A stretch of DNA of 64,000 nucleotides, from the NCBI GenBank assembly GCA_000320545.1, contig ADNK01000966.1, forward strand, positions 1 to 64,000. Direction: 5' to 3'. Below, in pieces: positions 3,329 to 25,444 of the stretch. The position numbers were made by a program, and so were the translations under genes. How positions within the stretch are numbered: position 1 is the first letter of the stretch; every line of letters begins with the position of its first letter. This DNA is from Bigelowiella natans CCMP2755. Taxonomy: Eukaryota > Protista > Cercozoa. The notes beneath the pieces were generated by a model. The model was not told the origin of the DNA. It did no database searches and was given only the letters and a program-made list of their open reading frames with translations.

Positions 3329-3432
3329 GCGCACGCTACACGCACAATGCATGCTAGATTCATGTACGTGCAGCAGTATGATGCGCGCGCTACACGTACA
3401 ATGCATGCTAGATTCATGTGCGTGCAGCAGTA
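3329..3432. repeat. Tandem duplication, 2 x 50 bp, period 54
   Basis: 3329-3378 vs 3383-3432 match at 47/50. Differences: 3333A/3387G, 3343C/3397T, 3366A/3420G. Confidence 0.95.
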
Positions 3433-3499
3433 GGTCACTAGCGATTCGGAAGCAATGCTTCCCTCCAAGATCCCGCCCTGTTTGGAGGCACCATGTGTG

Positions 3500-3790
3500 C
3501 TAGTCAACCAGAAGTGAAAGCCTCCGCACTCTGTTTTGTGGACTGAAAAAAATCCTCCAGTTCGTTTCTTTGCGTTTCACACCATCGTTATCCACCAATT
3601 CGTCGATGTCTTCGGATTTCTCAAGAATGCAGCGAACAGAGAGGGTTCTCATTTTTTCATTCGCTCAATCATCTCAGATTCACTAAGCTGAGTGTAGCAT
3701 CTTGAACGACAATCCTTGATTTCTTCCATTCCCACGTTGGAAAATGATGCTTCATGCACATATGTGCAATTCCAGAATTGCTGCACGCGC
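3500..3790 (-). pseudogene. Degenerate coding relic with frameshift
   Basis: Reads QQFWNCTYVHEASFSNVGMEEIKDCRSRCYTQLSESEMIERMKK, then after a shift in an A-run MRTLSVRCILEKSEDIDELVDNDGVKRKETNWR. Protein-like, but C/H/M-rich and not spliceable to neighbours. Confidence 0.3.
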
Positions 3791-4177
3791 ACACGCGCAC
3801 ACGCACACATTTGCACAATAACGACTCCAGTGAGGGCCGTGCCAGTTAGTTCCATCTACTTGAGACGCGCCGCGCCGCATTGACAACGCATGTGATGTGG
3901 AGCGCGAGTACGGTGCAAGCCATCACGTTCATCACAACAATCGTGGTCAAGTGTGTCCATACTAGCATGGCACGTGAATCTGATGACGGTGCAATAATGA
4001 CGATGCAACGTACCATTATCGACACATAGCAAGCATGCATGCTGAACATGCATCAATGTCATATCTCCCAAGGACCATGGGAAGCCCGTATTGTCAAGGA
4101 AACGCTACCCGGCTCGATAGTTTGCAAGAGAGGTCAGAAAATATTAGGAAGCCCCATCGCGTTGCTCGCGGGCGCGA

Positions 4178-6160: not shown

Positions 6161-6680
6161 CCGATTGGTCTCTTTGTTCGATGTGCTTGGTATTGTTCAG
6201 TGGTACAACCCAAAGTGGTGCTCTTGCTTAAAAGGAACTTTTTAGGCTGCGACAATCAAACTCCCATGTCGCCAATGCCAATTGCCCTATGTTTCTTCTG
6301 TACCGCACCCGAGATTGTCTCCTTTTAGGAGAGTTACAGGTAAGTTACGGGTATTATCTAGTGGAAATCCTGAAATCCTTCCTTAGGAAGGGTATTATGA
6401 AACCGTCCGACGTGTCCGAATGTGTCCGAAGATTATTCCTAGGAAATCCGCGGTAGGCAAATGTACACGCAGGCAAGCAGCGCCGATGAATGAACAAAAA
6501 ATTCAGAGGGAAAAATAATCATGGGATGCGGCTGATTTTTTGTGTCTCTCACCAACAGGGTGCTGACAAGTCCTTGCAACGAGTGTTGTTGAGGCTCTGC
6601 TGCGTGCAAATGCCTGTCTCCCATGTGGTTCTGGCGCATGTAGTTTTGATCAACGCTTTCTTCATTGTTCATTGTTCATA

Positions 6681-7644
6681 ATCGGCCTTCTGCTTTTGCG
6701 GACAACTTTTTTGGATTTGCTGTGAATCATTTTGGACGATTGTCATGCAACAATTTGGAAATGCAGTCGATCATCAATTTTCTTTCTTTCTTTCTGTCTT
6801 TCTTTGCGACAAGGTCGAATCGACGCAGCAAATGGAGAAGGGACGACGAGAAATGCAACAACGAACAGGAAAAGAGAGAAAGCAGAGAACCTTGCTTCGG
6901 CCACAGTGTTGGAAGCTGTCACCCTCTTTGCATTGTGGAGTGCATGTCCCCTGTGCGCACACAAACGCAATGATGGACCACTGCATCGATCGATCGACGA
7001 CGTGGGCCAATTGCCACCACCACTGTGAGCCTCAGAAGCGTGCGTGCATGCAATGCTCGCGCACGCAAGAATCTGGTGACAAGAATTCGATCGCACAGTC
7101 GTTCAAACACGAACCAGCACACGCACGTGGCCAGGCTAGCGGGCGGCCACGCCCACAGTGCATCGCGGCACTGGTCAGCAGTGACCTGCGTGCAAGTGTG
7201 CACACTTCACGCAGTGTTTGCCGTTGAAGTTTGCCCTGCGACTGCACAAAGCACAGCGCACATGCTAGCATGTGTGCACGTGCTGCAGGTCAGAGCATCC
7301 ATTGCATGTTGTGCTGCAGCTGCGTTCATGCTCGCTCAATGAGCTGCAAGCGGGACGTCACGAGCAACGGGCGCAATCGCGGGCGGAATGACAACAATGA
7401 CATTGCCATTGCAAAAATGAAACACCATGCACGTCGTGCGATGGATGTGGAAGAAACTGACAAAACACAATTCAAGCGCTGCGACGCTGATCGATCATGC
7501 ACTCATGTTTGCGCCGAGCGCAGATGTGATTTCTCAAATTGTCACTCTGATGTGGACTGCAAAGCAGACACAGCATGTGCTGTGCTGCACACAGTGCATG
7601 CATCGCATCACGCACACACGTTGTGTCTGTTGCATGCACAACGC
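6681..7644. other. TpA-depleted intergenic island
   Basis: Only two TpA in 964 bp (7137, 7266), both in GCTAGC. Rich in TGCA/CATG/CACA. CpG abundant. Confidence 0.92.
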
Positions 7645-7691
7645 TAACAAGTATGTTGATACGCACAAAGCTACATGTGTGCTAGAGTGTG

Positions 7692-10024
7692 TCAATCATC
7701 CAGATCATCGTCTCCTAGCTCGTCGTCAAAGTCCTTGAGAACCGATGACAGTCGCAAGAACTCCTTCTTGTGCTTTTTTATCTGGTTCACGTGAGCTACT
7801 CCCACTCGTTTTGCTGACGAAGGTCTTTTTGACTCTTTGAATTCGCTTTTCGCACTGGCATGATCAGCGTCAGTGAGGGTCTCATCGTCTACCCCTTCCG
7901 CCTTTTCTTGTACTTCCTCATGCACAATCTCATCTTCTATCGTAAAATCATTATCATCTTCCCATAGCTTGTTCTGCACCGCCTCTAAATGCTTGCCAAC
8001 CATCTTGAACATTTCGAAATCGGCTTTGCATGTTGTGCTTTGCCCCACCGCCCTGATGAGACCCAGGTTTTTCATGCGGCGAATACGAGGGTCGAGGATC
8101 TCTTGGATCCGACGCATTAATTTAACCTAATGATGTGTGTGATGTTTGTTGCTGAAACTGGATGCCATATTACATTCTCATGGAGAGATCGAAAATTCTT
8201 CTGCATGCATTCATTTATTCGTTAACTTGTTCTAAAGTCTCTTCATGGTCTCACGATATCAATGGATAAATCATTGAAATAACAGTGATGCAGCACAAAG
8301 AATCAGTATGCGTTCTCCTGCTACCTGTTGATCGATGATGCCTTTCATCATTTCCCCCCGAGATTTACATCTTTTAAGCTCTGACCTTAAGGTATTCTGC
8401 TCGCTCTCTAGCCCTTGAAGGTGGAGAGAGACGTCTCTAAACTTATTTTCTAAACATGTGACATCTTTTTGCATGGTCCCGAATGCCTTGTGTGCTTCAA
8501 GTGTCTGTGTTATGAGAGAAAAAGCGTACTTAATTGCAGAGGCTAGGCCTCCAGAGTAACAAGATCGAAATAACGTTTGTTCATCATAGGCAGAGCTCAT
8601 TGATGTTTCAGCATGCCCCTCCTTATTGTGAGAGATTATGATGCGGTTTTGTAATTTGCGCTATATTGCATGAGGCTTATACCGCACTTAAAAAACACGC
8701 ACACACACGCGCGCGACACATGCACGAGCGTGCGCACGCACACAAACGCACTTACCCCGTCTCGACGAAGACTATCTAGTCTGGCCAGCTTTAAAGATGT
8801 TGTGTGTAATTCCTTTTGATACTGCATTCTTAAATCCATCATATCGTTTTCCTCTTGGAGCATTAGTCTAATAATAATGATTCCGCCATAAGTTAGCGCA
8901 TGTATGCATGCATGTAAGTAGAATTAATAACGCCATGTTAGGGTTCAGATCATCTTTACGATTTCGTCCTCGCGCATGTATTTGGCTTTGCTTTGCCTCC
9001 CTCGTGCTGAGCAGACACATTCAAGCAGCATTTAAACTACATGCACACAAACACGAAATCATATAGGCGATATTTATATAAAATTTACGTTTTGCGTGTT
9101 GCGTGTGCAAAACGGGATATGGATCAACGACATACCTCTTCCTCCATTTCGCCGCCGTCTTTTTTATCTGGTTCAGTCCTTATCGTCCTTTGTAAAGCAA
9201 TGGCTTTGTCGATCTCCGCCAAGCTTTCAGCATAGATTTCAATTTTTTGAATAAGATCATAGCGCTGTTTTTCATAGTCTGCTCCAAGCTGCTGTTGCAG
9301 CTGCTGTCTCTCCTGACTCCTCTCGGAACCATCCGAAAGTAATAGCAAGTCTTGTTTTGAAATGTTTGACTTTGCCGAGATTAGATCTAAAATATCGGTG
9401 ACAGGGCGTGTACTTGCCCCTAATGGAGAAATGACACTGTTTTGTGACCTTTTTTTCCCGGCTGGTGATGATAACGGCCAAGGAGATGATTTAGCGCCGC
9501 TGTTTTGTAAGCTTGGACGCTGAAGGGTGGCACCGGGTTCGAGCCCGTTGTCAACATGTTCTGCCAGAAACGCTGGCGTTTGGGGGATACCTCCTTCCAA
9601 ATCTGTAATGGGGTTTGAAAATTCCTCTTCCTCCTCCTCTCCGTCATCCCCGACATCCTCTCTACTATAGCCAGTCTTTCTCAAAGGCACAGATGAAGCT
9701 AATACACTGACTGCTGCCTTGAATTGCTGGAGATCAAGTGCAACCCCGCCGGCATTATCTGTCTCAGGAGCAAGACGAAGGATTATGCTTCTAGCTGCAT
9801 GTGGCTTTAATTGCAGGTTTAGGCGGCGCCCTGCCTCCAGGACCGCCTGGGTGGCTCCCTCCTCGTCAAGAGTTCGACGTCGGCAGGAGAAACCGCGGAA
9901 TACTTTCGCGATGGTGCTATCTGGAGAGGCACGGTGATGCAAAATTGATGAGGAATTCGACCAACACAACGGAGAGGAGAGATCTGACGAGACAAGGGGT
10001 CAGGAAAAACAAAGCACCTTCCAT
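7692..10024 (-). CDS. Coiled-coil protein with degenerate EF-hand-like N-terminus, unknown function
   Basis: Likely ATG GAA G|AT start (MEDSTIAKVFRGFS..), large exon ~9135-9922, further coiled-coil exons at ~8757-8868 and ~8325-8506, and last exon 7692-8127 ending DDELGDDDLDD-stop. GT-AG junctions present. Confidence 0.65.
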
Positions 10025-10683
10025 CCAAAGCGTGTTGGGGCGGGGGAACAAGTCCGTTGGTCCGGCCAGGCACAATGTTTGTACAAATTATGAGCGGTAT
10101 CAAATAAGGCATGTCGCAATCTCAAAATTCCCCTCCCCGTCGTTGTTCCGTGCTGTAACGACCCCTACCCCTGACAAATCAGGAATAGTTTTGCCTAAGG
10201 AAAAATGCACGAACAACACAAAAAACAACAGAGCAACTGAGCATCGGAGAACAGAACCGAACAGCACACACACACACACACATACAAAGGGGCCGCGAGC
10301 GAGCCGGCGCATGGTGTCCGGCACCTTGCCGTGCAGACTTCGTCCAGGACTCAGCAGCGGCTGCCACGGGTTCAACAAGGCTCCCGCCTCCCTCCTCTTG
10401 GCCCTTCTTTCTATCTCTTTCGTGCTCATGCGCTCCTTGCTTGCCGATGGGGAGGTTGCGTTCGTGCGGGCCACCAGGAAGGTAGTGCCTCACCTTGAGC
10501 AGCCGCCGACGCTTCCACTCTTTCTGATTGTTTGCGCGCGATTGTTCTCTGAGCAAGATGTAATGCTGTCTCAAAGCAACGGGAGCCAAGAAGGACGGAC
10601 TACCCCGATCTGGATGATGATATCGTGAACCAGGTTTGCAGCCGCCGCCTCCTTTGCACAATAGGCGTTCAACTGATGAGCTT

Positions 10684-11340
10684 ATGCCGATGGTCGATGA
10701 TATTTTACAGATTGTATCCTTGAGTGATCTCCCACCACGGCAAATAGGGTAGATAGTAGTATTACAGCTTGATCTCCGTCTAAAATTGGTTAATAATCCA
10801 CATCAACCACGGTAGCTTCATGATGATGGCCTATGGAGAAGCTGCCAAGTCCCCGTTGCATAATCAACACGGAGCGGTAAATTTTATTTAAAATTGAATC
10901 AACAAATGCACTGCGAGCGACGTGCTGACCGACAATTGACGTGTATGGTTGATTTAGGTCATCGTAAAAAATGGGGAGGTGATTGCCAAAGGGTACTTAC
11001 TACATCGTCAATCCCTCTTCATAAAATCCTAACTAGCAAATATTAATTCTTTCTGTTATTTTCCTTCCCTCAGACACAATCGAATCCCTTGCTTCACGCA
11101 AAAAGCTAGTTACACCCGTCATGCGGAGGAGGTACTATTGCCCCCCCCCCCCCCCTCTCCCTCCGCATGAGAAAGCTATGTACAGTTCTACCATTCCAGT
11201 ATGTTTCCTCTGTATTATCTCGTTAGGTTGCCTTGCGCAGCTGCCCTCCTCATCAACTCAGGGATGCAGATTTGTACGTCGTGAGGTTGTTCTCGAGCTC
11301 ATTTTTTACGTGTCATCATATCCACAAATAATCACTATCA

Positions 11341-11373
<33 letters not shown>

Positions 11374-11891
11374 TGTTGCACTGAGGCACGGAACGTAAAT
11401 GTAGGAAAGGGCGAGTGGAGGATGGTTATCCCGACATTCAAATCTCAAAGCCGTGCCAGGTGTTTTTTTTTCATTGATGGTGGCAGGGGACAGAAGGGAA
11501 AACAATTTTCGTCCTCTACTTTGCCTTCCTAAGTTCCGAGAAAGAGTGACGCGCCCAAGTGAATCGTATGTGCTAAAAATTATTTAATAGGCATGCTCGC
11601 GACTCATCAAGGCTTACATAAAGAAGGTAATAGTTCTTTCTGAATGTTGGTTTTCCGCACCTCTGAAACGTTCGAACCACATTGTTTCTATCCTCCATCC
11701 AGTACGGTCTTCGCCACACTTACTTCAGCATAAACACACTCATCGACGTTGACTCTCACGCACTTCCTATACTGCGTACAATCAATGTGGAGGAGAAACG
11801 ACCATCGATTACTCCGATCCGTCGTATTGCTAGATTTTTGTGTTCCCGAACGGCTAAGGATGAACCCAAATCTTTTACACTAATTAAATGA
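10684..11891 (+). CDS. Zn-dependent cytidine/dCMP/TadA-superfamily deaminase (multi-exon; 5' end may extend to ATG 10311)
   Basis: Exons ..-10748, 10816-10876, 10958-10992, 11074-11131, 11227-11285, 11405-11459, 11591-11626 and 11703-11891 join in frame through GT-AG introns to give RQIGFMMMAYGEAAKSPLHNQHGAVIVKNGEVIAKGHNRIPCFTQKASYTRHAEEVALRSCPPHQLRDADLYVVRKGRVEDGYPDIQISKPCQACSRLIKAYIKKYGLRHTYFS. HAE and PCxxC are intact. Confidence 0.88.
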
Positions 11892-12441
11892 AAATGGGAG
11901 AAGTAAATGTGTCTTGCGCCGCCAACGTTATGCCATCAATCAGAGTCAGGCGCAGCTAGTAGTCTACAGTCCTGATGGACACGCTCATCCGCTCTTTCTA
12001 GTATATGCGCAATGAACACTGAGCGATGCGAGACTGTGCCGGCATTTTTCTAAAGAAATGCCCCAGCTGTATTAATAAGACTGACTGGCTAAATGCAATC
12101 ATCATATTGAAAGCGCTGCCACCATCCTGGTGCCGTGCATGTCTTACATGTACGCGTATGACTGCGACATGGCAAACACGCTGTAGCTTAGCATAGCTAT
12201 ATTGTGTGAGTGCGTGGTGATCGCCATCCTTTCGTATCATGCTGTCGATCGAACCGACAACGCATGAACTAGAGCTTTACACGAGCCTTTCAAATGCGAT
12301 AGCATAGCAAACACGTTCCATGTAAATACGCGCGTATCATTAGGCTACATCAGCGGGAAGCAGCACATGCCAGATGCATGCCGCAAACAAGTCCTAGCAA
12401 TCGTTAGCTTAGTACTTATAGTCTAAGTTCGGTGCCCACCG

Positions 12442-13500: not shown

Positions 13501-15162
13501 CGTGTTATGTTCACACTGCCTGAGCTATAGGAGGCGGGTCTTTCTCAAACTGAAAACACGTTCTGCAGTAGCCAATATAGCCAATATACACATTCACATG
13601 TGTTATCATCATAAGGCCGCCAAGGCCAAAAACAGAGCAGAAATAAAAAGAAGGCTGCGTGAGATATAGAGGGAGAGGAGGGGGGGGATATATCAGAACG
13701 ACAGACCTTATGGATTCTAAAATGCTATTTGCAGTCTGATTTCGAGTGATGTTGCCTTAAGACAAACAGAGATATTATGTCGTTGCCACGATGTGCCATT
13801 ACCAACATTATTCTTCTTATTTTTGTAGCGATCGGTGATATGATGGGATGCTAGCGTTACCTACACCGTCCACATGGATTATGCAATCGTGAGTATGAGC
13901 AAATCCGTGAGAAGAGGAGGAGGATGGGGAGCGGGATTCTTCTGCTTCTTCGCATTGACTTGCCATCTCGTCAGTCGCAGGATCAGAATCCACAGCCAAG
14001 TCCCCGCTCTAACATATAGAATAGACGATAGAATAAACGAATCACTCACTTTCTTGCCTCGCTTTCCTGCCCCCCCTCTACCGACTAAAATGCTGTTGAA
14101 ATTCGGCATAATTTTGTGTCCTAGGTAAGGAACTGAACACAACTCTCTTAAGAGTTCTATTTCAGATGTCGGCGTGCACACATGTATATACAGAACCTAA
14201 GTACATACGCACACTTGCTTGAGACCAAATCCGACAGCTTTTTCATAATGTATAAAGGCGCTCTTATGAGACTGGGCTAACACGTAAAAACGAAGCCCTT
14301 TGCATCGATCATACCTCAAGATTTGCCGTTTTTATTTTCCATCGCGATAGGCATTTTTGGACGGCGCAAGATACTGTCTTGTTCGGGTGCCCTATATACC
14401 TCCTGCAGATATCAATGACATTTAGCGTAAACTGTGTACACATATATGCTGCCATCCACGAATGGCACTGCATTCCCCATCATCATGTCAACCTGAGCCG
14501 AGAAGCAACGCGGAAGGTCGTTCGGAGGCCTCGAAGGGACGTACGAATTGGCTGAGCACTAAGCTTTTTAATAGCATCCGCAGCGAGATCGGTTTGGTTT
14601 CGCTCAACTTTTGAAAAAACATAGTAGCATGCAACAGGGGTAAAATAAATATACAGATAAGGGAGGGTGGGGGAAATGGCCGGCAAGTGTGCAGCGTGAT
14701 AGATAGGTAGGAGGAGGCATATATAAATTTCGCTGGCAAGATCGACATAATGCTGGAAATTTCGACCTGCTCGTTTCATATCGTAGAAATAAAGATCTAG
14801 CTTCTGGCCCTTTTGCAGAGTAGCCTGAATATGTTGCAGTATATCGATGAACATTACGATCAGTGTCGAAATCGATCTTACGGCCAATCTATAGTTATAG
14901 ATTCCTCAAGACTTCCCGTTACCCCTGCTTTCCTACCGACCTCCTTTTCGGAGAACTTTGGGTCAAAACTGCTGGAAAACTTGACGGGGCCCTTCCTCTT
15001 TCCCAGTAAGCGCTGCCACTCGCGTCTTTTCAAGTGGATGGCCATGCCTACATCTTTCGGTGCCACGCCTCCCTCCCACACTGTTACTCTAATCATCGAA
15101 ATCATGAATATTATCGTCCCCCACCTACATCGCCAGCCGCTGCAGGCATCCCTTACGACCAT
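12442..15162 (-). CDS. Multi-exon gene with a putative TFIIS N-terminal (TND/LW)-like domain
   Basis: Spliced segment AADAIKKLSAQPIRTSLRGLRTTFRVASRLRRYIGHPNKTVSCAVQKCLSRWK resembles the TFIIS-N helical bundle. C-terminal exon DIREGIRVGKY..KKEAAMLNITV-TAG. Middle exons and start uncertain. Confidence 0.5.
12869..13062. repeat. Compound satellite (TAA)n + [(TGTGCATG)n (TG)n] x2 in an intron
   Basis: Read directly: an 8-bp unit repeated several times followed by a TG tract, the whole block duplicated. Confidence 0.9.
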
Positions 15163-15552
15163 TCGGACGGCGTGCCGATTGCCCGCAGCGGAGGAGAAGC
15201 GTTAAGAGCGATTTGAATAAATATGGCAGCGGCAAAAAAAACATGCGATTTCTTTCTGAATATAACGAAATATCCAAGTCGCAGAATGAAAACTCTCCTT
15301 GTCCGAATCGCCATTGCATCCTTGGTAAAAACCGGTATTCGAGATTGTGAGAGATTCCCCCTTCCCTCTCGGAACAAACAACGACAACGACACGAAACAG
15401 CATTGGAAACGGTCAGCCTCTGGAGGAGGGAAGACGACCGAAGAATGGCATCCAGGGCGTACGTGTGCCTTTTTTCCGATCACTGACCTTTACTTCTTCA
15501 ACATTCTTTCCCTTGATTATTCGCTGTGCAGTACTAACAGTGGGAACATCGA

Positions 15553-18996
<3,444 letters not shown>

Positions 18997-19603
18997 ACAA
19001 AAAGAATGCAGCTTGAATGGCTTTGAGTTTTTATCTTCCGTTACGGAGTATATGCACAACAGCGAATTTTGAATGACGTCTTTCCACATCAGCTCTACAC
19101 CGAAGCGGGGAGGAAGGAAATACTCCGGTCGAAGATGAAAGTATTACTTCGAGGCCTCTGTTCATCAAAAATGCTTATTGTGATTGCCGGACACCTAGAT
19201 TTTTCCTGTTTTGCACCCGTTCGTAAATTGTTTTTCAGCGTTCCATGGTGCAACTGCCGTGCATGCCAATCTGGATTCATTCAAATTTCATGACAGAACG
19301 ATTTCAAACATGTACGTGGTCAACACCAATGGGACATCAATCTAGCAATGCCAGAATGGGCTTCCGCGTGTGCATGAAGTCATTCTAATTGTGCCGACAT
19401 GCAGCTTGGCCAAGTGTGTGATGGAATTGAAGCGATCACACATCGCAGCACACACATGCAAGTGCGATGCTGAGCAAACTAACTGTGCAGGCCTAGAGGC
19501 ATGCATGCGATGCCAGCGCATGCGCAGTGGCATGTCACGTACTCGATCTGGCGTTTCGTCACACTCGACGTAGAGGGTGAACGACGTGCCGCACCAACAC
19601 GTA

Positions 19604-19820
19604 CACATCTAGACATGCTTGCCACTGCATGTGCAAAAAAGCCATGCGAGTGCACATGACACAAATGTGCACGCATGCACCGCCGCCGCTTCCACCGCCA
19701 CGCATGCGACGCGTGCTTCATCAAGCAGCGCGTGCGTGTGCACGCACGCACAGACATGTCTAGTGTGCTAGGTGTGTGCAACACTTGCTCATTCGGACAG
19801 CTTGCACAAACACAAATTGG

Positions 19821-19873
<53 letters not shown>

Positions 19874-20084
19874 TGAAACCACAAAAAACAAGAACAATTG
19901 AATGGCTGTGAGCAAGCAGCAGCAGTGGAGCTCAACGCACCATTCGTGCATGATGCGAGTGAAGAAATGAATGAATGGAGTGCGTGAGGTCACTGATGCA
20001 GCTGAGATGATCATCGGAAGTGCCATCTCGTTCGCTTCCTCTCCAAAACAAAATGGACCTCCGAGGAAATGTTGAACCTGAGGC
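19604..20084. other. TpA-depleted intergenic island
   Basis: Three TpA in 481 bp, all in CTAG (19609, 19760, 19768). Confidence 0.9.
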
Positions 20085-20515
20085 TACTGCAAGCGCAAAT
20101 GCAGGGATAACCTCCCAACGACAGCAGACGCATCAAAAAAAGGCCATCTCTTTTTTTGTTGTTGTTAATTTTATTTATTCGAGTACGCGAGTTGATGTCA
20201 GGCGGTAGTTTTCGGGAGCAATAAACGTGCATGTTGTTTCGTTAAGCGCAGCCCAGCAATCTGACCACCAGCCAACACCTGCCACAACCAAAAAAAAACA
20301 TCCAAAAGGGAGATCGGGTAGTTTATGAAAATGGATAGTATCCGCTTATATTTTTTTCCAATAATTGAAATGCGTTTTCCTTCTTACGTGATGCGACACG
20401 CGTAGCGGCAGCGTCACCAACCAGAGCGAAGCACAACGCAACGACGCTCGTCATATCTCCCCCCACACATTGAGGAAAAAACTAGCCCATCGCGGCCCCC
20501 CCAGCGGTAGTCGGC

Positions 20516-23117: not shown

Positions 23118-24527
23118 TCAGGTAACGTCTTGTGAGAGCCACGTTTCGATGGAGGAAAACTGGAGGTTGGCCTTCGGTTCTCCCCGGTTGGTGCTGAACA
23201 TACGCGTGAGGATGTGGTTAGAATTATACGATTGTACACGCGAATGAAGAGCTACCACCGTGAAGACAGCGTTAGTTTTGGCCAGGAAAGTTTCCTGTAG
23301 AGAATGGAGTTTGTAATATCATCTTCTGCCTCGTCGAAACGTGAGATAGCACCGGGGCACGTGCCCATTCTACTACTACATCTACTATTACTACTACAAC
23401 AACAGAAACTACTCTTGCTACTACTATTAACACAATGCCGGTGACAGGAGCACAGCACACCTGAGCAGCTGCTCTGTCCAACATCTCCACATTCTCACTT
23501 TGTCCATCTGAGGGCAATAGAAGAAGATGCAGCATCATAAACACTGTTAGCTTGCTTTCGTCGTGGGAGCGAGCAATGGCATGCTCCCATCTGCTATGCA
23601 TAAGGTAATCTTTGAGGACAAACACACACACGCGGAAGCAGTGATAAAAACAGACGCACGTATGGAAGAGTGTCCTCACACCTAAATCATCCTGAAGATT
23701 CACGGGGTTATTGCTGCTGCTGCTGCTGCTGCTGCTTTCATCACGGGAGAGTTTTTGCTCCTTCCTCCGCCCCAAGATCCCTCGGCAATTCGCCTTTTGG
23801 TCATTATTATTATTATTACTACTACTACTACTACTACTATTATTATTGCATGCCATGAAGAATAGGGTTGCGCTTAGCTCAAAAAAAAAAAAATGTAAGA
23901 AAATTGCGGAATCGTCTCGCTCAAAGATGTAGCAATGAGCGTCAGTATCACTATTTACAACTACTAATACTACTAATGATAAGTTGAATACTACTGGTAG
24001 TACTCGAAGGCGGCTGCATTCCCCAAAATAGGTTTAATGATGCTTGCCTCTCTCCAAGCTGCTGCTGCTGCTACTACTAATACGACTACTTCTACTACTC
24101 TGCTAGTGTAAGCTGCTATTTGACCGATCCGCAATAGCACTTCTGCTCTTTAAGTCCCACACGCTTGAAATCATAGTCAAACGTCACCTCCGAACCTGCC
24201 CGACGCAATGATGGTAGAAGAGACGATTGCTAAGGCGATGATATACGTGCACGGACGTTCTCTTACGATGGCTAAGTAGTAGTAGTAGTAGTCATGCATC
24301 TGACCCAACCTGATGGGATGTGTTTTATAGCGAATATTCCGATCCGCTCGACTCCATCAACCGTCCATTTCTGTGTGGACAGACAGACAGCACACATTGC
24401 ACGGTGATGAGGACTTGACAATCACCACTAGTCAAAGGGTGCTCCAAGCTTTCCTAGAGTAATAGTTGAAGGAGCGATGTGCCGTCGGATCCCTGAGGCG
24501 CGGCCAATTTTGTCGCCTTCGTTGCTC

Positions 24528-24561
<34 letters not shown>

Positions 24562-24833
24562 GGTCATCGTCGTCATCTCTCCAACACTGGGCAAGGAGCA
24601 ATGATCGGTAAAGAGGACGACCTCGGCCTTGGCGTTCGGGTCGCAGCTATGGTTGATGAAGCGCGTCACTCCGCCCTTCTTCGTGGCGTCGATGGTGAGA
24701 TCCTTCTCGATATCTGGAAGATAGTGATGATGATGATGGTGATGATCAACAACAACCAAAACAGCAAACAACACAAATGCAAGCATGTGTGTGTGTGTGT
24801 CCTTTTTTATCACACATTTTCCAAGGGTAAATC

Positions 24834-24870
<37 letters not shown>

Positions 24871-25444
24871 GCAATGCCGATCTCGCAGCGCCGAATGAAG
24901 GCACCCTACCAAGAAGGTAGAAGTTCTCGTTATCTATATAGTCAGATTCAAGCCGTCGCTGCTTCTCGTTGTCATTGATGAGCTGTTTATGTTGCGAGTA
25001 AGTCAGTCAGTCACCGTATTGACCCTATGTGGAAGAGAGCTACAAGCCTCCTCTTCCTCATCAACTTCACCGCGAAGAGAAACAGCATCATCGAGTGCGC
25101 ATATTCAAAAAACCAAGAAGCGGGCAGGATAAAAGCTACGATGAGGATTTCACATTCTTTCACGCACGATAAGTGCATTTGTAGTGACGAACGACACATA
25201 TGCGCATGCTGTACCCTGTTTTCGCGATGAGAATGCTAAAAAAAGAAGGTGAATGCCTACCTCCCCGCAGTACTCCCCGATGAGCTGTCCAGGAACCACG
25301 TCCTCCAAGTTTACGAAACCCCATCTACAAGTATCATCGATCACCCTTGCTGTTGTCTTAGAAGAATGACATAAAATTGCGGTTGCAAAAGCATGCACGC
25401 TTACACACAAAACTGCACATAACACATGTTAAATGGGTGTGTCC

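What the first reader, a model, noticed from the sequence alone, without database searches (positions are those of the whole stretch)
10684..11891. Hidden micro-exon Zn-dependent deaminase gene (HAE...PCxxC)
Seen: short exons (35-61 bp for the core) splice in frame into a complete deaminase fold, EAAKS..HGAVIVKNGEVIAKGHN..RHAEEVAL..LYVVR..SKPCQAC..YGLRHTYFS. The ORF track misses it. Established: HxE/PCxxC defines the CDA/dCMP-deaminase/TadA-ADAT superfamily. Inference: the KS..HGAV, LYVVR and SKPC wording differs from canonical TadA/ADAT2 (EVPVG, LYVTLEPC) and resembles a poorly characterised clade I associate with large DNA viruses and scattered eukaryotes. Its substrate is unknown. It is a candidate effector for the A-to-G signature, but sitting ~3 kb from an island is not evidence of a link.
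Basis: partly seen in the sequence, partly recalled or inferred. Interest (0 to 1): 0.75.

Follow-up and report, generated by a model that had tools for sequence, protein, structure and literature searches.

The report
Virus-derived deaminase with plastid-type leader
This spliced, expressed algal gene encodes a zinc deaminase likely taken from a giant virus and predicted to be shipped into the chloroplast complex to process nucleotides, so it is unlikely to be the missing enzyme behind the alga's known A-to-G mutation of viral DNA.

Summary
The gene is real. All seven proposed introns appear as GT-AG joints in three transcript assemblies. It is already modelled as JGI Bigna1 132831 of Bigelowiella natans. 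The transcript has ten exons and encodes 252 aa from ATG 10311, with an N-terminal hydrophobic segment that scores like the plastid signal peptides of PsbO and AtpC in this genome. All 5 chlorarachniophyte sequences with an intact N-terminus carry such a segment; 1 of 135 other relatives does. The core belongs to an uncharacterised virus-rich clade (H-G..N..HAE..YVVR..SxPCxxC) that fails the defining features of TadA/ADAT2 and most of those of dCMP deaminases. Eight chlorarachniophyte sequences form one branch with two old paralogs. The TpA A-to-G process is real and its enzyme unknown (2026 preprint; earlier scan notes on other DNA of this genome agree), and this gene was not among the five candidates screened. 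But the leader points away from the host nucleus, and 18-40% of sampled bases lie within 3 kb of such islands. Best reading: a plastid-complex pyrimidine-nucleotide deaminase. Substrate and location are untested.

The parts
10241..10481 (+). Exon 1: 5' UTR, first ATG at 10311, coding for the basic n-region and the hydrophobic segment
   Evidence: Transcript contigs begin at 10241-10294 and splice at 10481; frame open from 10311; relative P0002 starts at the equivalent Met
10389..10445 (+). Codons of the 19-residue hydrophobic segment (aa 27-45), predicted signal peptide or signal anchor
   Evidence: Kyte-Doolittle 19-mer mean 2.09; same-genome controls PsbO 2.13, plastid AtpC 2.01
10577..10633 (+). 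Exon 2 (57 nt), missing from the JGI model; basic then acidic linker, candidate transit-peptide-like region
   Evidence: Flanking joints in 3 of 3 assembled runs; present in P0002
10634..10710 (+).
   Evidence: 77-nt GT..AG skip in 3 of 3 assembled runs
10711..10748 (+). Exon 3 (38 nt), end of leader
10816..10876 (+). Exon 4 (61 nt): helix 1, conserved Ser and His-Gly before strand 1
10958..10992 (+). Exon 5 (35 nt): strands 1-2
11074..11131 (+). Exon 6 (58 nt): invariant Asn and the HAE motif (His codon 11120-11122, Glu codon 11126-11128)
11227..11285 (+). Exon 7 (59 nt): helix 2 and strand 3 ending in YVVR; followed by a weak GTTGTT donor
11405..11459 (+). Exon 8 (55 nt): hairpin insert and SKPC (first Zn Cys codon 11454-11456)
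11591..11626 (+). Exon 9 (36 nt): second Zn Cys (11594-11596) and helix 3; the CxxC is split by an intron
11703..12091 (+). Exon 10: strand 4, about 50-aa low-confidence tail, stop 11889-11891, 3' UTR to about 12091
6401..7800 (.). TpA-depleted, TpG/CpA-rich island that prompted the effector idea; not part of the gene
   Evidence: rho TpA 0.14, TpG+CpA 1.76 against 0.70 and 1.18 for the window
9136..10080 (-). Separate, oppositely oriented spliced transcript lying between the island and the deaminase gene
   Evidence: Contigs with a CT..AC joint at 9921-10017 in 2 of 3 assembled runs; no NCBIfam match

Best explanation
This ten-exon, transcribed host gene encodes a zinc deaminase of a virus-rich clade, likely acquired once from a giant virus by an early chlorarachniophyte, predicted to enter the ER through its leader and reach the plastid or periplastidial compartment, where it likely deaminates cytosine nucleotides. 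Mechanism: His and two Cys would hold Zn, and the Glu would activate water to turn dCMP or dCTP into dUMP or dUTP for the thymidine supply of the organelle genomes. Shown: splicing, expression, motifs, fold, a chlorarachniophyte branch with two paralogs, a conserved hydrophobic leader. Inferred: viral donor (about 0.8), ER entry (about 0.8), plastid complex as destination (about 0.6), pyrimidine nucleotide as substrate (about 0.55).
For: Splicing and first ATG. Leader in 5 of 5 chlorarachniophyte sequences with an intact N-terminus (KD19 1.97-2.15) against 1 of 135 other relatives with a locatable core; it matches PsbO, plastid AtpC and a TadA-like gene of this genome, while the mitochondrial-type ATP gamma start has none. 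Bipartite leaders route proteins to plastid, nucleomorph and PPC in this species (PMC3542566). Tree: 8 chlorarachniophyte rows form one clade (99/81), both paralogs hold Bigelowiella and Amorphochlora, nested in a 71-row virus/metagenome clade (99/96). The four listed Atlas clusters are labelled 100% viral, commonest Nucleocytoviricota; best BFVD model is from Pyramimonas orientalis virus. dCMP deaminases rank first by Foldseek, profile search, VIA-align (Z 11.1) and PHROGs. The Ser ending helix 1 (92%) aligns with a Ser in the three dCMP deaminases shown. In 5 of 6 viral records the clade gene is the only PF00383 match. The annotated dCMP deaminase (56445) and DHFR-TS (50818) are listed as 'no-signal' (PMC5635652 supplement).
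Against: No signal-peptide predictor or localisation test was run; a hydrophobic segment could be a membrane anchor or a secretion signal. The fold does not pick a substrate: guanine deaminase (Z 11.0), TadA (10.0) and RibD (9.9) tie with dCMP deaminase (11.1), and a TadA ranks second in the profile search and also has the Ser. The clade lacks the Zn-capped insert, the NA and the G(Y/W)N(A/G) motifs of dCMP deaminases, so the active site may be open to polynucleotides. One of 6 viral records carries a canonical dCMP deaminase as well, hinting at a different job. No targeted thymidylate synthase was seen in the stored part of the table, which weakens an organelle dTMP route. Viral neighbours gave no consistent nucleotide-metabolism context. 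The tree has 125 columns, 36 of 80 inner branches open, and the sister row P0012 is unnamed.
Confidence: 0.42

Rival explanations
1. The enzyme is imported into the periplastidial compartment or plastid and edits RNA there, for example A34 of nucleomorph tRNAs, with the two paralogs possibly acting together.
For: Same leader evidence. The stretch after the hydrophobic segment is basic first and acidic later (6 K/R then 5 D/E), a pattern I recall from Hirakawa et al. 2010 as favouring the PPC (paper not held). The nucleomorph encodes tRNA-Ser(AGA) (PMC4494063), an A34 tRNA that normally needs inosine (established knowledge). The dCMP-type cap is absent. Two old paralogs are retained.
Against: TadA/ADAT2 features are not met: EPCxMC in 1 of 144, His instead of Glu before strand 1, median tail after the last strand 8 aa. 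The genome has its own ADAT2-, ADAT3- and leader-bearing TadA-like loci. The acidic distal pattern is weak in paralog B. Both paralogs keep the catalytic Glu, unlike ADAT3.
Confidence: 0.17
2. The hydrophobic segment is a signal anchor or secretion signal, and the enzyme works in the ER, food vacuole or at the cell surface, salvaging nucleosides or depleting nucleotides needed by an invading virus.
For: Long n-regions (11-47 aa) before the segment suit an anchor. The linkers of the two paralogs differ in make-up (S+T 0.10-0.31). dCTP deamination serves anti-phage defence in bacteria (PMC12088426 passage).
Against: Plastid controls in this genome also have n-regions before the hydrophobic segment. 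A basic stretch follows the segment in all five sequences, as expected of a transit-peptide-like region.
Confidence: 0.2
3. One reading: the protein is the nuclear DNA adenine deaminase that turns TpA into TpG in integrated viral and repeat DNA, reaching the nucleus as a leader-less form made from the second ATG (10428).
For: The process is real and its enzyme unknown, and this gene was not among the five IDs screened. The clade is uncharacterised and lacks the cap that confines dCMP deaminases to free nucleotides. An in-frame second ATG followed by a basic patch exists. Both paralogs lie near an island.
Against: The leader is kept in both paralogs and two genera. The second Met is absent from the Amorphochlora ortholog. 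Transcripts start upstream of the first ATG. 40% (loose) or 18% (strict) of central bases in 20 sampled 10-kb stretches lie within 3 kb of an island, so the one independent case, paralog B, is unremarkable. No DNA- or chromatin-targeting domain was found. Structural similarity to DNA or dsRNA deaminases is low (AID Z 3.5, ADAR 4.3-4.6, DddA 4.1-4.2). The preprint has an ADAT2/3 candidate.
Confidence: 0.05
4. It deaminates some other small molecule in the plastid (guanine, cytosine or a riboflavin-pathway pyrimidine).
For: Guanine deaminase, RibD and cytosine deaminase folds tie or nearly tie (Z 11.0, 9.9, 9.1). Chlorovirus A200R is annotated, untested, as cytosine deaminase (PMC10142491); whether it belongs to this clade I did not test.
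Against: No RibD insert inside the CxxC and no long C-terminal extension; NCBIfam RibD score 14.6 against a cut-off of 156.
Confidence: 0.13

Closest known systems
dCMP deaminase/ComE clade (cyanophage S-TIM5 4p9c, human DCTD 2w4l, PBCV-1 A596R 7fh4)
   Same: HAE and PCxxC, Asn at the end of strand 2, Ser ending helix 1, best overall fold and profile match; common in large DNA viruses.
   Different: No Zn-capped bihelical insert (spacer median 13 aa against 21), no NA after HxE, no G(Y/W)N(A/G); has His-Gly before strand 1, Arg ending strand 3, a hairpin insert and Ser before PC; separate branch; N-terminal leader.
TadA/ADAT2/ADAT3 tRNA adenosine deaminases, including the preprint's candidate Bn78255
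   Same: Same Zn core, Asn in strand 2; TadA Z 10.0.
   Different: No EPCxMC, no Glu before strand 1, no conserved C-terminal helices; NCBIfam TadA 16.9 bits against cut-off 150.
Unnamed giant-virus and phage PF00383 proteins (Pyramimonas orientalis virus A0A7M3UNY8, Solivirus A0A3G5AJR1, Feldmannia virus FirrV-1-A29, Streptomyces phage LukeCage gp234)
   Same: Top structural matches; the LukeCage protein and IMG/VR giant-virus proteins share the clade motifs and branch with it. I found no tested member.
   Different: Viral members are short, intronless and almost never have a hydrophobic leader; the algal genes have 9 and 6 RNA-supported introns.
TpA hypermutation of viral insertions in Bigelowiella natans (bioRxiv 10.64898/2026.01.13.699255)
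   Same: Same species; the island at 6401-7800 shows the signature; the enzyme is unknown and a deaminase is suspected.
   Different: No evidence ties this gene to it; the predicted location is outside the host nucleus.
Phage 5mC-selective deaminase mSCD-B5 (bioRxiv 10.1101/2024.12.05.627091)
   Same: Viral PF00383/PF14437 enzyme that acts on nucleotides and ssDNA, showing that such annotations can hide polynucleotide activity.
   Different: Its best structural match is PBCV-1 7fh4 at 3e-15, whereas this protein matches 7fh4 at 3e-3, so it is probably another subgroup; it converts C-type bases, not A.

Membership tests
Zn-dependent deaminase superfamily (PF00383) | HxE and PCxxC on the alpha/beta deaminase core | tested here: met
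   Pfam 42.7 bits against cut-off 25; His 100%, Glu, Pro, Cys, Cys 99% of 144; model pLDDT mostly above 87 over residues 21-140 of P0001
Zn-dependent deaminase superfamily (PF00383) | Catalytic activity | not testable with these tools
   Needs an assay
TadA/ADAT2 | Glu before strand 1 (PMC3239186 Table 1) | tested here: not met
   His in the query and in 93% of 144
TadA/ADAT2 | Asn in strand 2 | tested here: met
   Invariant; shared with dCMP deaminases, so not diagnostic
TadA/ADAT2 | EPCxMC motif | tested here: not met
   Query has SKPCQAC; 1 of 144 rows matches
TadA/ADAT2 | Two conserved C-terminal helices with Glu and Phe | tested here: not met
   Median tail 8 aa, 82 of 118 scored rows 15 aa or less; the query's tail is unconserved and at pLDDT about 50
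TadA/ADAT2 | Asn at the position the preprint links to DNA editing (N119 of Bn78255) | tested here: inconclusive
   The region after strand 4 did not align reliably with E. coli TadA
dCMP deaminase/ComE | Zn-binding bihelical insert before HxE | tested here: not met
   Two or more Cys in 2 of 114 scored rows; spacer median 13 against 21 in 62 canonical viral proteins
dCMP deaminase/ComE | NxxP at the end of strand 2 | tested here: inconclusive
   Present in the query, absent from paralog B and the Amorphochlora ortholog; 4 of 144
dCMP deaminase/ComE | NA after HxE; allosteric G(Y/W)N(A/G) | tested here: not met
   Query has HAEEVA and GHNR; HAExNA in 8 of 144; motif from PMC12088426
dCMP deaminase/ComE | Groups inside the canonical clade | tested here: inconclusive
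   Own branch 99/96, joined to the 10 canonical rows in an open fork; only two outgroup rows
AID/APOBEC | Trp in strand 3, SxS before PC, two helices after strand 5 | tested here: not met
   Absent from the query; AID at Z 3.5, rank 50
Virus-rich H-G/YVVR/SxPC clade (informal) | Ser, His-Gly, Asn, HAE, Arg ending strand 3, Ser-x-PCxxC | tested here: met
   All at 90% or more of 144 and present in the query; the set was gathered with the query, so this is partly circular
Chlorarachniophyte plastid/PPC-targeted proteins | N-terminal extension with a hydrophobic signal followed by a basic transit-like stretch | tested here: met
   87-aa extension, KD19 2.09, conserved in 5 of 5; controls 2.01-2.13; hydropathy only
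Chlorarachniophyte plastid/PPC-targeted proteins | Shown localisation or presence in the plastid proteome | not testable with these tools
   Supplements of PMC3542566 and PMC7883536 unreadable; PMC5635652 table cut, ID 132831 not in the stored part
TpA A-to-G mutator of B. natans | Nuclear location and adenine deamination of DNA at TpA | not testable with these tools
   The leader argues against it
TpA A-to-G mutator of B. natans | Non-random link to TpA islands | tested here: not met
   Baseline 18-40% within 3 kb; the gene's own CDS and introns are not depleted, rho TpA 0.61 and 0.84
TpA A-to-G mutator of B. natans | Presence tracks the signature across species | not testable with these tools
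   No other chlorarachniophyte genome is held

The most novel reading that the evidence does not exclude
A deaminase captured from a giant virus was turned against viruses: a leader-less nuclear form of this protein or its paralog is the unknown TpA-specific DNA adenine deaminase that erodes integrated viral DNA in chlorarachniophytes, a natural A-to-G DNA editor unrelated to TadA.
Probability: 0.05. Interest if true: 0.92.

Novelty: new variant of a known kind. Interest (0 to 1): 0.42.

Why it matters
It corrects the gene model and moves one candidate for the B. natans TpA mutator down the list while showing that the published screen (five annotated IDs) missed at least two deaminases and that six-frame searches miss micro-exon genes here. 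Separately, it describes an untested deaminase clade that is widespread in giant viruses and phages and fits neither TadA nor dCMP deaminase. It is also a likely case of a viral gene that gained introns and a plastid-type leader and was kept in two copies across chlorarachniophytes. If the targeting holds, a viral enzyme serves the secondary plastid or nucleomorph. The small mature domain is easy to assay, which would settle the substrate for the whole clade.

Tried and rejected
Pfam on five single exons: 0 of 5 matched. The search for related loci with P0001 found no relative in viral or metagenome contigs; word-based, so weak. The genome-contig scan with a viral-type member gave 43 weak loci, not classified, so bacterial presence is open. 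No intronless copy in the own genome with two queries, but those searches also missed this gene, so more micro-exon paralogs may exist. Pfam on 131 of 178 neighbour ORFs from 15 viral loci: no shared functional context; single cases of DHFR, RNR and HD domain, thioredoxin in two related loci, a SLOG gene in 3 phage loci. Atlas search of exon 1: no usable hit. Shared intron positions between paralogs: one lies a base apart, not identical by my reading; not used. No complex prediction was obtained, so pairing of the paralogs is untested. Literature: no paper held all of deaminase / nucleocytoplasmic large DNA / TadA / dCMP deaminase / clade; Bigelowiella + deaminase + NCLDV + horizontal gene transfer gave one unrelated listing; PMC3239186 has no NCLDV mention. 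These searches cover only the open library. Three targeting or structure papers were not held. Rejected: ATG 10684 as start; the JGI start at 10428 as the main start; the gene as part of a viral insertion (normal introns, no TpA loss); closeness to an island as evidence.

Full report
1. Observation. Joining the exons by coordinate gives one open frame with every quoted motif and GT-AG at all seven introns. The core exons measure 61, 35, 58, 59, 55 and 36 nt, as stated. Chance is excluded by transcripts: in 3 of 3 assembled runs, from three studies, contigs skip exactly these introns; the raw RNA run, read to about 6%, gave 78 reads, mostly at the 3' end with first mates on +, one across a joint. 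The gene is invisible to the ORF list and to six-frame family and protein searches of the genome. It is, however, already annotated: the last exon retrieves JGI Bigna1 132831, 194 aa, PF00383. Bigna1 is the B. natans data set named in the preprint.

2. Corrected model. The same contigs show two more introns, 10482-10576 and 10634-10710. Transcripts begin at 10241-10294; the first ATG, 10311, opens 252 aa. An unnamed relative, P0002, starts at the same Met and includes the 57-nt exon that JGI skips. The new N-terminus is an 87-aa leader: basic n-region, a hydrophobic 19-mer (KD 2.09), then a basic and an acidic stretch.

3. Relatives. phmmer over 1.84 billion representatives found 501 proteins at E up to 0.001; 150 were listed. 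One MMETSP protein maps at 96-100% to G000:C2412, a second paralog with six RNA-supported introns. All 5 sequences with an intact N-terminus have a hydrophobic segment (KD 1.97-2.15); three others start in or near the core and were not counted. Of 264 other proteins, 135 had a locatable core and 1 of these had such a segment. Controls from this genome: PsbO 2.13, plastid AtpC 2.01, a TadA-like gene 2.09, mitochondrial-type ATP gamma none. This is hydropathy, not a trained predictor.

4. Clade. In 144 aligned hits the Asn and His are invariant; Ser, His, Ala, Glu, Arg, Ser, Pro, Cys and Cys are at 90% or more. Against the table of Iyer et al. 2011 it fails TadA/ADAT2 and most dCMP-deaminase features (see membership test). 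The four Atlas clusters listed are viral, commonest Nucleocytoviricota. BFVD ranks Pyramimonas orientalis virus first. IMG/VR giant-virus bins and Streptomyces phages carry the motifs. A tree of 83 rows (8 algal, 45 chosen hits, 18 viral loci, 10 canonical dCMP deaminases, 2 outgroups; 125 columns) gives one algal clade (99/81) with paralogs A and B each holding two genera, inside a 71-row clade (99/96); 36 of 80 inner branches are open and I ran no donor test. One early gain from a virus, then introns, leader and duplication, is the simplest reading and is inferred.

5. Structure and substrate. The model of P0001 has mean pLDDT 78.7 with a confident core and a weak tail. Foldseek ranks dCMP deaminases first. 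VIA-align ties dCMP deaminase (Z 11.1, rmsd 3.3, 102 aligned), guanine deaminase (11.0, 3.2, 98), TadA (10.0, 2.3, 97) and RibD (9.9, 1.6, 91); ADAR, DddA and AID score 3.5-4.6. So the fold leans to, but does not prove, a pyrimidine-nucleotide enzyme. That the helix-1 Ser binds substrate phosphate in dCMP deaminases is recalled, not checked. Five of 6 searchable viral records have the clade gene as their only PF00383 match; one also has a canonical dCMP deaminase; four handles were not held. Neighbours gave no pattern.

6. The A-to-G link. The preprint measured TpA-to-TpG/CpA mutation about 1000-fold above background in two viral insertions, proposed ADAT2 Bn78255, and screened five IDs that do not include 132831. 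The island at 6401-7800 has the signature; the gene does not. Paralog B also abuts an island, but in 20 stretches of 10 kb, picked by me from eight contigs that had search hits, 40% (loose) or 18% (strict) of central bases lie within 3 kb of one. The window case was selected for its closeness, so only paralog B counts, and it is not significant. A conserved ER-type leader is hard to square with editing host nuclear DNA. A leader-less form from ATG 10428 is possible, but that Met is missing in the Amorphochlora ortholog. I put the mutator reading at 0.05.

7. What I read. Preprint 10.64898/2026.01.13.699255: parts 1-4 of 5, no supplements. PMC3239186: passages and section 10. PMC3542566: passages and section 14; supplement unreadable. 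PMC5635652: searches in a cut supplementary table only. PMC7883536: search listing; supplement unreadable. PMC10142491, 10.1101/2024.12.05.627091, PMC12730881, PMC3774753, PMC4494063, PMC12088426: passages. Hirakawa 2009 and 2010: recalled only. Unseen supplements could hold a localisation call for this gene.

8. Verdict. Observation right in the core, wrong at the start. A new variant of a known kind: an annotated but undescribed, likely virus-derived deaminase pair with plastid-type leaders. Interest 0.42: a specialist would find the origin and leader worth a test, and the assay is simple, but the striking reading is unlikely.

Noticed in passing
G000:C2412 about 83550-85480 (L016 2547-4478, minus strand): Paralog B, 264 aa, seven exons, long leader with hydrophobic segment and Ser/Thr-rich linker; expressed in 3 of 4 runs laid; a TpA island lies just downstream (L016 501-1800 and 2201-2600).
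   Followed up: partly
window 11286-11404 and L016 3247-3357: In both paralogs the intron right after YVVR is partly retained in transcript contigs, and database proteins P0002 and P0269 end or carry an insert there. In the window gene retention would cut off PCxxC; the donor there is a weak GTTGTT. Could be noise or regulation.
   Followed up: no
window 9136-10080 minus and 10241 onward plus: Head-to-head transcripts about 160 nt apart, suggesting a shared promoter; the minus-strand gene has no NCBIfam match.
   Followed up: no
window 3401-3900, 6401-7800, 19601-20200, 24501-24900: Four TpA-depleted, TpG/CpA-rich islands; 14 more in 200 kb sampled elsewhere, so the process touches many short stretches.
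   Followed up: partly
L005 (G000:C3286:4241-4645 minus): TadA-like gene with its own hydrophobic leader (KD 2.09), a likely plastid tRNA deaminase.
   Followed up: no
L002, L004, L007, L008 (G000 contigs C980, C3623, C3588, C2301): At least four guanine-deaminase-like or unplaced PF00383 genes with EPC motifs; whether they are among the preprint's five screened IDs was not checked, and those without a leader are better-placed mutator candidates than this gene.
   Followed up: no
L018, L019, L030 (phage contigs): A YspA/SLOG-family gene lies directly upstream of the clade deaminase in three related phage loci, hinting at nucleotide handling.
   Followed up: no
L116/L117 1049-1438 and 3941-4288: A giant-virus contig carries two divergent clade copies next to its major capsid gene.
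   Followed up: no
window about 14800-19100 plus: A multi-exon coiled-coil-like gene is readable by eye; not analysed.
   Followed up: no
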